The translations under genes and the position numbers were made by a program. The notes below the pieces were generated by a model. It was not told the origin of the DNA. It saw only the letters and a list, made by a program, of their open reading frames with translations, and did not search any database. Of a DNA stretch of 64,000 nt, positions 18,501 through 20,898 are shown in pieces; the first letter of the stretch is position 1, and every line of letters begins with the position of its first letter. The stretch is taken from positions 128,001 through 192,000 of IMG/VR virus record IMGVR_UViG_3300021978_000001, one strand, 5' to 3'. The DNA comes from a virus (Duplodnaviria > Caudoviricetes).

Positions 18501-18562
18501 AAAAAAAGCCCGGCGAAGCGTGTAGCTTCAGTGCAAGACCAAAACCAAACGCATCACCGGGC
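18501..18562 (-). terminator. long-stem intrinsic terminator after tRNA-Pro
   Basis: GCCCGGTGA/TCGCCGGGC plus GCGT/ACGC, followed by T7. Confidence 0.65.
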
Positions 18563-18571
18563 GGGTTAGAA

Positions 18572-18643
18572 TCTGGATGGCAGGAATCGAACCTGCGTGG
18601 ACGTGCTCCCAAAGCACGTGGACAACCATTATCCCACATCCAG
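18572..18643 (-). tRNA. trnP: tRNA-Pro(TGG)
   Basis: Cloverleaf, loop TTTGGGA. Confidence 0.9.
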
Positions 18644-18648
18644 TTATG

Positions 18649-18799
18649 TGGTCGCGGACACTGCCTGTTGATTCAGGTGCTCGACCAGGTTCGATCGCAG
18701 TGAGGTTAGAAGCCTGTGCGCGTCGTCTTTGCCAAGAGTTGAAGAGTGATGAAGTCCTCAACGTGGCCCCGGTCATCACTCCGGGACTCCAGATCCGCG
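18649..18799 (-). ncRNA. candidate structured tRNA/tmRNA-like ncRNA
   Basis: Terminal stem CGCGGAT/GTCCGCG + ACCA; pseudoknot CCCGG/CCGGG with AGTGATGA/TCATCACT; AGG-CTTCTAA-CCT hairpin; CCTG/CAGG hairpin. Confidence 0.55.
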
Positions 18800-18801
18800 A
18801 G

Positions 18802-18875
18802 TCGGGATAACAGGATTTGAACCTGCGACCTCTGGTCCCCCAGACCAGCGCGCTGCCAAGCTGCGCCATATCCCG
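18802..18875 (-). tRNA. trnP: tRNA-Pro(GGG)
   Basis: Cloverleaf, loop CTGGGGG. Confidence 0.95.
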
Positions 18876-18906
18876 ATCGAGAGGTACAACCACCTCTCAT
18901 AGTCGT

Positions 18907-20775: not shown

Positions 20776-20806
20776 AACTATCCTCCGCGTTTCATGTGAT
20801 CAAAAA

Positions 20807-20898
20807 GAGCCGGGTGGGACTCGAACCCACGACATACCGCTTAAAAGGCGGATAGGACCATCCCCGCATGTGCGAGGAACAATAGCCCCACCCGGCAG
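20807..20898 (-). ncRNA. tRNA-Lys(TTT)-like RNA with 25-nt hairpin motif inserted in the D-loop
   Basis: Anticodon arm CCGC-CTTTTAA-GCGG, T-arm GTGGG-TTCGAGT-CCCAC, D-stem GGGC/GTCC around an expanded loop, imperfect acceptor stem. Confidence 0.7.

What the first reader, a model, noticed from the sequence alone, without database searches (positions are those of the whole stretch)
18649..18799. 151-nt structured RNA between two tRNA-Pro genes with tRNA- and tmRNA-like features
The ends pair as a 7-bp stem CGCGGAT/GTCCGCG followed by A-CCA. This is the only encoded CCA among the window's tRNA-type genes, and C1-G72/A73 matches the Pro acceptor pattern. The 5' domain can form an H-type pseudoknot (CCCGG 18785-81 with CCGGG 18772-68; loop AGTGATGA with TCATCACT 18752-45; alternative AGTCC/GGACT). 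Twelve nt later a GCA-initiated frame AKTTRTGF-TAA (18732-18706) begins, similar to the PK1-to-resume-codon spacing of tmRNA. Its stop lies in AGG-CTTCTAA-CCT, a canonical anticodon-like loop (UCU, Arg). CACTG/CAGTG could stack on the terminal stem. It lacks G3-U70 and a TTCRA T-loop, so it is not a canonical tmRNA.
Basis: partly seen in the sequence, partly recalled or inferred. Interest (0 to 1): 0.8.

Follow-up and report, generated by a model that had tools for sequence, protein, structure and literature searches.

The report
tRNA-shaped RNA between phage tRNA genes
A conserved, folded RNA of about 150 bases with tRNA-like ends sits between two proline tRNA genes of a 437-kb marine phage; it is probably cut out like a tRNA, it is not a tmRNA, and its job is unknown.

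Summary
The 151-nt stretch (18799..18649, minus strand) is real and under selection. It lies in a 437-kb phage genome, 2 nt after tRNA-Pro(GGG) and 6 nt before tRNA-Pro(UGG). Two related phages from other metagenomes carry it at the same place. Its first 39 nt are identical in all three, while four-fold sites of the flanking genes are only 44-60% identical.

RNAalifold and a manual model agree on a five-arm cloverleaf: a 7-bp terminal stem plus A-CC, two hairpins with complementary loops, a long variable arm, and a short arm stacked under the terminal stem. Seven base pairs show changes on both sides that keep the pair.

The tmRNA-like details fail:
- The "tag" frame is broken by indels.
- The GCA resume codon and the TAA stop are not conserved.
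- The "anticodon" loop varies (7 nt with one base changed, or 5 nt).
- CCA is encoded only here; relatives read ACC-U.
- There is no G3-U70 and no T-loop, the phage has no SmpB, and ARAGORN and Rfam find nothing.

Best reading: a new tRNA-operon RNA matured by tRNA-processing enzymes, the same kind as T4 RNAC/RNAD, whose roles are still unknown. The genome also encodes Ro60 and YrlA-like RNAs, but the element lacks their shared handle. Expression is untested.

The parts
18649..18799 (-). The whole element, 151 nt. Element position p corresponds to window coordinate 18800-p.
   Evidence: Model R1 scores 169-186 bits in the window, L002 and L003. There is one copy in the 437-kb genome. No Rfam family matches at E<=10.
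18793..18799 (-). P1 5' strand (p1-7, CGCGGAU). It is preceded by a conserved CU, with U at position -1.
   Evidence: All 7 pairs are kept in 3 sequences. U7-G141 becomes U7-A141 in the relatives. In run X8, C143 becomes U, which keeps G5-U.
18649..18659 (-). P1 3' strand (p141-147), then A148, C149, C150 and A151.
   Evidence: ACC is invariant. Position 151 is A here and U in L002 and L003. A spacer of variable length (6, 10 or 22 nt) begins right after ACC.
18789..18791 (-). P1a 5' strand (p9-11), pairing with p137-139 (18661-18663).
   Evidence: Predicted by RNAalifold. It forms 3 bp in L002 and L003. G10-A138 is a mismatch in the window. It makes P6 continuous with the terminal stem.
18766..18787 (-). 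P2 hairpin (p13-34): 7-bp stem and 8-nt loop L2, AGUGAUGA (p20-27).
   Evidence: Invariant in all sequences, so covariation neither supports nor refutes it. It appears in the minimum-free-energy folds of L002 and L003.
18738..18762 (-). P3 hairpin (p38-62): 7-8 bp stem, loop L3 of 9-11 nt holding the invariant UUCAUCAC (p47-54).
   Evidence: Three pairs changed on both sides: 40-60 U-A/G-C, 41-59 G-C/A-U, 42-58 A-U/G-C. In X8, A42 becomes G, which keeps G-U58.
18680..18736 (-). Long arm: P4 (p64-69 with p115-120), a conserved internal loop (AAAG / A.CUG), P5 (p74-83 with p101-109, and p85-87 with p95-97), and a variable terminal loop (p88-94).
   Evidence: Pair 68-116 has three pair types and 69-115 changes C-G/G-U. 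Pair 77-106 has three types and 80-104 changes C-G/G-C. The terminal loop reads CUUCUAA, CUUGUAA or GAAAA.
18664..18677 (-). P6 hairpin (p123-136): 4-bp stem CCUG/CAGG and 6-nt loop AAUCAA (AAUCGA in L002).
   Evidence: The stem is invariant. The loop is not a UUCRA-type T-loop. Four nt of the loop are complementary to L2 (UGAU/AUCA), which is not above chance (P=0.13).
18802..18875 (-). tRNA-Pro(GGG), immediately upstream.
   Evidence: ARAGORN and Rfam, 63.3 bits.
18572..18643 (-). tRNA-Pro(UGG), immediately downstream.
   Evidence: ARAGORN and Rfam, 57.7 bits.
18501..18562 (-). Terminator-like structure after tRNA-Pro(UGG): GCCCGG ... CCGGGC followed by seven T.
   Evidence: Read by eye. Both arms and the T run are conserved in L002 and L003. 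The simple terminator scan did not report it; its loop is longer than the 3-8 nt the scan allows.

Best explanation
The stretch encodes a small, independently folding, tRNA-shaped non-coding RNA of a family not in Rfam.

How it is probably made:
- It is transcribed in one unit with tRNA-Pro(GGG) and tRNA-Pro(UGG), ending at the terminator-like structure after tRNA-Pro(UGG).
- RNase P is inferred to cut 5' of C1.
- The enzymes that trim the neighbouring tRNAs then trim the 3' side to A-C-C, and the host CCA-adding enzyme completes CCA.

The product has the helix order of a class II tRNA. This consists of a 7-bp acceptor-like stem, a D-position hairpin (P2), an anticodon-position hairpin (P3), a long variable arm (P4-P5), and a short T-position hairpin (P6) stacked under the acceptor stem. 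None of the arms has canonical tRNA dimensions, so it cannot decode.

I take it to act in trans as a stable tRNA mimic or scaffold. The invariant parts would be the working surfaces. These are the first 39 nt including loop L2, loop L3, and the internal loop of the long arm. They would engage a protein that handles tRNA-like RNA, or another RNA.

What is shown and what is inferred:
- Shown: conservation, the secondary structure, and the exact boundaries.
- Inferred: co-transcription, RNase P and CCA processing, stability, and action in trans.
- The molecular partner is unknown.
For: Selection:
- The first 39 nt are 39/39 identical and the whole element 79-84%.
- Neighbouring spacers are 64-69% identical. 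Four-fold sites of the two flanking genes are 44-60% identical.

Structure:
- RNAalifold gives the same fold as the manual model.
- On the model as counted, which included a loop-loop helix written one column out of register, 85% of cells pair; leaving that helix out, about 97% of the 43 secondary-structure pairs pair.
- Seven pairs changed on both sides, against 3.0 +/- 1.2 in shuffles (1 of 500 reach it) and 0-1 when partners are slid.
- The consensus fold is the minimum-free-energy fold of L003 and lies within 3 kcal/mol of that of L002.
- Six listed changes in a fourth variant (run X8) are either unpaired or G-C/A-U to G-U.

Boundaries:
- Conservation starts 2 nt after the upstream tRNA, with U at -1.
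- It ends at ACC, where a spacer of variable length (6, 10 or 22 nt) begins.
- Most of the phage's tRNAs read discriminator, C, then U; a minority go straight from the discriminator to U or A. The relatives' element ends A-C-C-U, the same pattern with a second C.

Precedent:
- T4 RNAC and RNAD lie flush with tRNA-Arg in the T4 tRNA cluster.

Not coding: the 1-nt and 2-nt indels shift any frame that crosses them, and L002 has stop codons in all six frames.
Against: - Only three full sequences are available. Two of them are 91% alike, so covariation rests on few branches.
- No RNA data exist, so expression, ends and stability are unproven.
- The window's own minimum-free-energy fold differs from the consensus by 8 kcal/mol.
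- P2, P6 and most of P1 never vary, so they are untested.
- There is no T-loop or D-loop, so recognition of the tRNA elbow by RNase P and the CCA enzyme is not assured.
- The phage encodes no CCA-adding enzyme.
- The family is confined to one small clade. More distant relatives (L004, L006) lack it at this locus.
- No partner or target was found.
Confidence: 0.6

Rival explanations
1. It is a structured spacer acting in cis, or a remodelled third tRNA-Pro gene, with no function in trans. It would fold so that the two flanking pre-tRNAs are held apart and presented correctly to processing enzymes. After cleavage it would be degraded.
For: - It lies exactly between two tRNA-Pro isoacceptor genes, where a third (CGG) isoacceptor might once have stood.
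- Its stem has C1-G72 and A73 like both neighbours, and reads like the tRNA-Pro(GGG) stem with one extra C-G pair.
- Other isoacceptors of this phage are clustered: Thr x3 and Arg x2.
- It is restricted to a small clade.
Against: - Perfect conservation of 39 nt and of loop L3 asks for more than a spacer needs, while stems covary and four-fold sites are 44-60% identical.
- Other tRNA pairs of this phage are separated by only 2-3 nt, so no structured spacer is needed for processing.
Confidence: 0.18
2. It is a Y-RNA-like partner of the phage's own Ro60 protein. It would be a tRNA-order version of YrlA. The acceptor stem carries the true ends, and the stem that binds Ro60 (P4-P5) is closed by a variable loop.
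For: - The genome encodes a full Ro60 (TROVE plus Ro60 vWA domain).
- No RNA family matched within about 1.5 kb of that gene.
- The phage's YrlA-like RNAs lie in the tRNA region about 170 kb from Ro60, so distance is no objection here.
- P4 carries an invariant CGAG/CUUG with a conserved G-U wobble, on the strand just 5' of the T-position arm. This is where YrlA has GNCGAA (PMC4201824), and the phage's own best YrlA-like RNA reads GCCGAG.
- M. smegmatis YrlA is cut by RNase P and receives CCA.
Against: - The motif has only 4-5 specified bases, so a chance occurrence is likely.
- The element lacks the conserved T and D arms that define YrlA.
- It gives no RF02553 hit even at E<=10.
- It lacks the shared handle of the phage's six cassettes, UG(C/A)(C/A)G..GGRUUAU.
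- Model R1 finds nothing in those cassettes.
Confidence: 0.12
3. It works through its two complementary loops. Either L3 (UUCAUCAC) pairs with another RNA while L2 acts as an internal mimic or competitor. Or L2 and L3 of different molecules pair hand in hand to build dimers or rings, as the loops of phi29 packaging RNA do (the phi29 comparison is from my own knowledge).
For: - There are eight contiguous complementary bases between two hairpin loops; random loops reach 7 or more with P=6.5e-4.
- Both loops are invariant while the P3 stem covaries.
- The two hairpins are joined by only 3 nt. A 7-bp loop-loop helix within one molecule is therefore sterically hard. This is an inference from A-form geometry.
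- The isolated duplex is worth -9.5 kcal/mol.
Against: - No variation exists to test the pairing.
- No enriched or well-placed GUGAUGAA target was found in the phage genome: 23 sites, within the range of permuted 8-mers.
- Forcing L2-L3 as an ordinary helix costs 3-10 kcal/mol.
Confidence: 0.08
4. It is a miniature tmRNA-like RNA. It would be charged at its CCA end and add the tag AKTTRTGF to stalled proteins.
For: In this window alone there is a 7-bp stem plus ACCA, a possible pseudoknot, and then a GCA-started 8-codon frame ending in TAA.
Against: - From the same alignment column, L002 reads GKLGAQGKPHCPLNCPST* and L003 has no stop within the element.
- The GCA codon is absent in both relatives.
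- CCA is ACC-U in the relatives.
- Position 3 pairs as C3-G145, not G-U, and there is no T-loop.
- ARAGORN finds no tmRNA in the window or the genome, and Rfam finds no tmRNA match at the element at E<=10.
- The phage has no SmpB.
Confidence: 0.02

Closest known systems
Phage T4 small stable RNAs RNAC (species 1, 139 nt) and RNAD (species 2, 119 nt)
   Same: - They are non-tRNA RNAs of similar size inside a phage tRNA cluster.
- They lie flush with a tRNA: RNAD starts 1 nt after tRNA-Arg, and RNAC starts 6 nt after RNAD.
- The annotated RNAD ends in ACC and the next encoded base is A.
- Their roles are still unknown (PMC3014915, PMC9697503).
   Different: - There is no sequence or structure similarity: model R1 finds nothing in the T4 region.
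- RNAC has a canonical T arm (GGGUUCGAAUCCC), and the element has none.
- The element has a five-way junction and two complementary loops.
YrlA / bacterial and phage Y RNAs with Ro60 (Rfam RF02553; PMC4201824; Thermus phage phiLo Yrl1/2, PMC12135203)
   Same: - Both are tRNA-mimicking non-coding RNAs, and they are found in phages that encode Ro60.
- This genome encodes Ro60 and YrlA-like RNAs in its tRNA region.
- M. smegmatis YrlA has a 7-bp acceptor-like stem, is cut by RNase P, and gains CCA.
   Different: - YrlA is a permuted tRNA (T arm, closed acceptor stem, D arm) whose ends lie in the Ro60-binding stem. The element has tRNA order and open acceptor ends.
- It lacks the conserved T and D arms and gives no RF02553 hit.
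tmRNA (SsrA)
   Same: It has a terminal 7-bp stem with an A-CC(A) tail. In this one genome, a short frame follows a possible pseudoknot.
   Different: - There is no G3-U70 and no T arm.
- The frame, its start codon and its stop are not conserved.
- ARAGORN and Rfam do not detect it, and the phage has no SmpB.
Class II tRNAs (long variable arm)
   Same: - The order of five helices around one junction is the same.
- It has a 7-bp acceptor stem, a discriminator A and CC.
- The last hairpin is directly continuous with the 3' strand of the terminal stem.
   Different: - Stem lengths are 7, 7-8 and 4 bp, where a tRNA has 4, 5 and 5 bp.
- Loops are 8, 9-11 and 6 nt.
- There are no GG/UUC elbow sequences.
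- The variable arm is 57 nt.
- ARAGORN and the Rfam tRNA model do not call it.
RNAs released from tRNA precursors (E. coli RtT RNA, the 3' external spacer of the leuZ transcript that acts as a sponge; mascRNA of MALAT1). Named from my own knowledge, not tested here.
   Same: They are functional or stable by-products of tRNA-type processing. mascRNA is a tRNA-like RNA cut by RNase P and given CCA.
   Different: They are unrelated in sequence and belong to cellular operons or a eukaryotic long non-coding RNA. None has the five-arm fold with complementary loops.

Membership tests
tmRNA | tRNA-like domain with G3-U70 (alanine identity) and a canonical T arm | tested here: not met
   Position 3 pairs as C3-G145 in all sequences. 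The only hairpin next to the 3' strand has a 4-bp stem and loop AAUCAA.
tmRNA | Conserved tag reading frame with a resume codon and an in-frame stop | tested here: not met
   Indels of 1 and 2 nt shift the frame. GCA is replaced by GGA or AGA. The stop is lost or moved.
tmRNA | Detected by tmRNA models, with an SmpB partner | tested here: not met
   ARAGORN finds no tmRNA in the window or the genome. In the 341-nt scan at E<=10, the only tmRNA-type match (tmRNA_permuted, 10.1 bits, E 5.7) lies on tRNA-Pro(UGG), not on the element. The phage has no SmpB; a host SmpB cannot be excluded.
YrlA / Y RNA | Match to the YrlA covariance model, with conserved T-like and D-like arms around a closed acceptor-like stem | tested here: not met
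   RF02553 does not hit the element at E<=10. It does hit other RNAs of the genome at 32 and 25 bits.
YrlA / Y RNA | Stem carrying the Ro60-binding motif GNCGAA(N)G, or GGUCCGA/UUGACC in animals | tested here: inconclusive
   P4 has GUCGAG, UCCGAG or UUCGAG paired to CUUG with an invariant G-U. The motif is short, has G instead of A, and lies in a permuted position.
YrlA / Y RNA | Ro60 gene in the same genome, usually within 4 kb on the same strand | tested here: inconclusive
   Ro60 is present, but about 149 kb away and on the other strand. The phage's YrlA-like RNAs are equally far from it.
Canonical tRNA | 7-bp acceptor stem, discriminator base, 3' CCA encoded or added | tested here: met
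   All 7 pairs are kept and A-C-C is invariant.
Canonical tRNA | D arm, 5-bp anticodon stem with 7-nt loop, T arm with a UUCRA loop | tested here: not met
   ARAGORN and Rfam RF00005 do not call it. Arm sizes are given.
T4 RNAC/RNAD-type stable RNAs of tRNA clusters | A non-tRNA RNA lying flush with tRNAs inside a phage tRNA cluster | tested here: met
   It starts 2 nt after tRNA-Pro(GGG) and ends 5-6 nt before tRNA-Pro(UGG). The T4 layout is shown.
T4 RNAC/RNAD-type stable RNAs of tRNA clusters | Sequence or structure homology to RNAC or RNAD | tested here: not met
   Model R1 finds nothing in the T4 region L016.
RNase P substrates | Acceptor-like helix of 7 bp or more, U at -1, 3' RCC(A) | tested here: met
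   These sequence features are present and conserved.
RNase P substrates | Actual cleavage at C1 | not testable with these tools
   No RNA run holds the stretch. This needs an in vitro assay.

The most novel reading that the evidence does not exclude
The element is a tRNA-order tRNA mimic that the cell's own tRNA machinery releases and finishes with CCA. It then serves as a dedicated partner or decoy. One possibility is a non-permuted Y RNA for the phage Ro60. Another is bait for host enzymes that attack or modify tRNA ends. In either case its two complementary loops would act as a switch or an assembly interface. That would be a new class of phage tRNA mimic built in the natural tRNA strand order.
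Probability: 0.12. Interest if true: 0.75.

Novelty: new variant of a known kind. Interest (0 to 1): 0.45.

Why it matters
Small stable RNAs hidden in phage tRNA clusters have been known since T4 RNAC and RNAD, and their role is still unknown. This is a new example in a giant marine phage with clear boundaries, a structure supported by covariation, and two invariant complementary loops. That gives a defined molecule for testing what such RNAs do. The same genome also carries Ro60, several YrlA-like RNAs and tRNA/CRISPR-repeat chimeras, so its tRNA region is a dense set of tRNA-derived RNAs. For annotation, the result corrects a tempting tmRNA call.

Tried and rejected
- Rfam at gathering score and at E<=10 gave nothing at the element.
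- Close relatives in IMG/VR were sought through three proteins and a 19-mer: none found.
- GenBank phages matched only the tRNAs.
- A metagenome scan with the P2 20-mer gave five hits. Two lie in what I read as phosphate-permease-like coding sequence. Three are unrelated terminator-like hairpins. Model R1 matched only the 20-22-nt hairpin in four of them. In L010 it gave a weak, gapped full-length alignment (20.7 bits) without P3 or P6. I take these as chance.
- Model R1 found no copy in the more distant relatives L004-L007, and no second copy in the genome. In L006, the stretch upstream of tRNA-Pro(UGG) holds an 84-codon Cys/His-rich ORF instead.
- L014, L015 and L026 are identical to sequences already held.
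- Whole Logan records could not be searched by handle.
- No RNA holder was listed in either run search. Reads were laid on DNA runs.
- The long-range stems of the window's own minimum-free-energy fold (p25-36 with p66-69 and p111-118) are broken in the relatives.
- CACUG/CAGUG stacking is broken by C138 and A141 in the relatives.
- A K-turn or C/D-box reading of GUGAUGA plus CUGA fails: the flanks cannot form the required stem and sheared G-A pairs (by inspection).
- CGAA at p107-110 is not conserved.
- The search for GUGAUGAA targets showed no enrichment or pattern.
- The L2-L6 four-base complementarity is not above chance (P=0.13).
- The Ro60 co-occurrence search and complex prediction were not run. 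Neither could have decided the question.

Full report
**Where it lies.** The window is bases 128001-192000 of a 437,490-bp virus record with direct terminal repeats. On the minus strand, ARAGORN and Rfam place tRNA-Pro(GGG) at 18875-18802 and tRNA-Pro(UGG) at 18643-18572. The finding fills the gap between them. It starts at 18799, two bases (CU) after the discriminator of the first tRNA. It ends at 18649, five bases before the second tRNA. I number the element p1-p151, where the window coordinate is 18800-p.

**Checking the observation.** These are:
- the 7-bp stem CGCGGAU/GUCCGCG followed by ACCA;
- CCCGG/CCGGG;
- the complementary AGUGAUGA and UCAUCACU;
- the frame AKTTRTGF-stop;
- AGG-CUUCUAA-CCU.

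None of the genome's 33 tRNAs is followed by CCA. No Rfam family matches the element even at E<=10. The single-sequence fold is only modestly better than shuffles (z=-2.18).

**Relatives.** IMG/VR and GenBank phages gave nothing beyond tRNA matches. The neighbouring 511-aa protein has homologues at 87, 75, 65 and 62% identity in other assemblies. The two closest contigs, L002 and L003, keep the same layout: 225-aa gene, tRNA-Pro(GGG), element, tRNA-Pro(UGG), 511-aa gene. Run listings place the phage group in hydrothermal-vent and marine or seawater metagenomes of several studies.

**Conservation.**
- The first 39 nt are identical in all three sequences.
- The whole element is 79-84% identical to the relatives.
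- The terminator and promoter spacers are 64-81% identical.
- Four-fold degenerate sites of the two flanking genes are only 44-60% identical.

Conservation ends exactly at A-C-C. The next base is A here and U in the relatives. A spacer of 6, 10 or 22 nt follows. The encoded CCA is therefore particular to this genome. The conserved feature is discriminator A plus CC, followed by U in the relatives. Most of the phage's tRNAs end in the same way, with discriminator, C, then U.

**Structure.** RNAalifold on the three sequences and a manual model agree on these helices:

| Helix | Positions | Notes |
|---|---|---|
| P1 | p1-7 / p141-147 | terminal stem |
| P1a | p9-11 / p137-139 | short extension |
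| P2 | p13-19 / p28-34 | loop L2, AGUGAUGA |
| P3 | p38-44 / p56-62 | loop L3 with invariant UUCAUCAC |
| P4 | p64-69 / p115-120 | base of the long arm |
| P5 | p74-83 / p101-109 and p85-87 / p95-97 | variable end loop |
| P6 | p123-126 / p133-136 | short hairpin |

- Seven pairs changed on both sides while staying paired: three in P3, two in P4 and two in P5.
- Shuffled controls give 3.0 +/- 1.2 such pairs (1 of 500 reach seven). Sliding the partners gives 0-1.
- The consensus fold is the minimum-free-energy fold of L003 and lies within 3 kcal/mol of that of L002.
- A fourth variant was seen only as differences in a 69-kb contig of run X8. Two of its changes convert G-C or A-U pairs to G-U (C143U, A42G). 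Its four other listed changes lie in unpaired positions.

The helix order around the single junction matches a class II tRNA: acceptor, D position, anticodon position, long variable arm, T position. P6 is directly continuous with the 3' strand of the terminal helix. No arm has canonical size, and there are no D-loop or T-loop sequences.

**What fails.**
- The proposed tag frame does not survive comparison. A 1-nt indel at p78, and a 2-nt indel in the end loop of L002, shift the frame.
- From the same alignment column, L002 starts with GGA and L003 with AGA instead of GCA.
- L002 stops elsewhere, and L003 does not stop within the element.
- The "anticodon" loop is the least conserved part: CUUCUAA, CUUGUAA or GAAAA.
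- CACUG/CAGUG is broken in both relatives.
- ARAGORN finds no tmRNA in the whole genome, and the phage has no SmpB.

The tmRNA reading is rejected. The pseudoknot partners are real, and their complementarity is unlikely by chance (P=6.5e-4). But the downstream partner lies in the loop of P3, a hairpin proven by three compensatory pairs. The contact would be loop-loop. With only 3 nt between P2 and P3, I infer from helix geometry that it is hard to form within one molecule. Both loops are invariant, so covariation cannot test it.

**Context found on the way.**
- The genome encodes a complete Ro60 protein (TROVE plus Ro60 vWA domain) at G000:295346-296269.
- The YrlA model RF02553 gives sub-threshold but convincing matches in the tRNA region just upstream of the window. 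The best is G000:124242-124375 at 32 bits, with a T arm, a closed acceptor-like stem and a D arm.
- Six such cassettes share a 5' handle.
- The element is not among these hits, lacks the handle, and model R1 finds nothing in the cassettes.
- P4 does carry an invariant CGAG/CUUG with a conserved G-U, at the place where YrlA has GNCGAA (PMC4201824). With only 4-5 specified bases, this is a lead and not evidence.

**Comparison with what is known.** The closest known kind is the pair of T4 small stable RNAs, RNAC and RNAD. They lie flush with tRNA-Arg in the T4 tRNA cluster. Their roles remain unknown (PMC3014915, PMC9697503). There is no homology to them, and RNAC has a canonical T arm that the element lacks. 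[quoted passage not shown]

**Verdict.** The element is a real, selected, structured RNA with tRNA-type ends. It belongs to a family absent from Rfam and has been seen so far only in one small clade of marine giant phages. The best-supported mechanism is release and end-maturation by the tRNA-processing machinery, followed by a role in trans as a tRNA mimic or scaffold (confidence 0.6). Its partner is unknown. The other readings I weighed are:
- a cis-acting spacer or remodelled tRNA-Pro (0.18);
- a Ro60 partner (0.12);
- an RNA that pairs or assembles through its loops (0.08);
- a tmRNA-like RNA (0.02).

Expression and processing could not be tested, because no RNA run holding the stretch was listed.

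Noticed in passing
L017:1315-3066 (G000:C1 about 295160-296911, plus strand; outside the window): The phage encodes a complete Ro60 orthologue of 583 aa (TROVE 2.8e-41, Ro60 vWA domain 3.4e-60). A perfect 17-bp hairpin follows the gene at L017:3091-3130. No Y RNA model hits within about 1.5 kb.
   Followed up: partly
L018:1501-1634 (G000:C1:124242-124375, minus); also G000 127420-127528, 125210-125281, 126045-126102: YrlA-like RNAs lie in the tRNA region upstream of the window, about 170 kb from Ro60. RF02553 scores 32.3 bits against a cut-off of 69. The best match has a T arm, a closed acceptor-like stem, a D arm and a GCCGAG motif. Six cassettes share the handle UG(C/A)(C/A)G-N5/6-GGRUUAU. 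ARAGORN calls part of one a tRNA-Cys.
   Followed up: partly
G000:C1:120038-120110, minus (outside the window): ARAGORN reports a tRNA with anticodon CUA, labelled Pyl. This is an amber-suppressor-type tRNA in the phage genome.
   Followed up: no
window 20806-20864, minus: Rfam calls a weak tRNA here (30.5 bits) that ARAGORN does not. In L002 and L003, ARAGORN finds a tRNA-Lys(UUU) at what looks like the corresponding place (L002:3544-3618, L003:3512-3586).
   Followed up: no
All 33 tRNA genes of G000 (list): No tRNA gene encodes CCA. In most of them the discriminator is followed by C and then U, or directly by U. This suggests a shared signal for 3' processing.
   Followed up: no
window 18879-18898, minus: A largely conserved 7-bp hairpin (GAGAGGU-GGUUGU-ACCUCUC; its top pair is a mismatch in L002) lies 3 nt upstream of tRNA-Pro(GGG), between the 225-aa gene and the tRNA.
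   Followed up: no
L010:1234-1255, L011:1062-1083, L012:850-869: The exact P2 hairpin, including its 8-nt loop, occurs as a terminator-like hairpin in three unrelated metagenome contigs. It also occurs inside what I read as phosphate-permease-like coding sequence in L008 and L009. I judge this to be chance.
   Followed up: partly
L006:4706-4960: In a more distant relative, the stretch upstream of tRNA-Pro(UGG) holds an 84-codon Cys/His-rich ORF (a possible small zinc-finger protein) instead of the RNA element.
   Followed up: no
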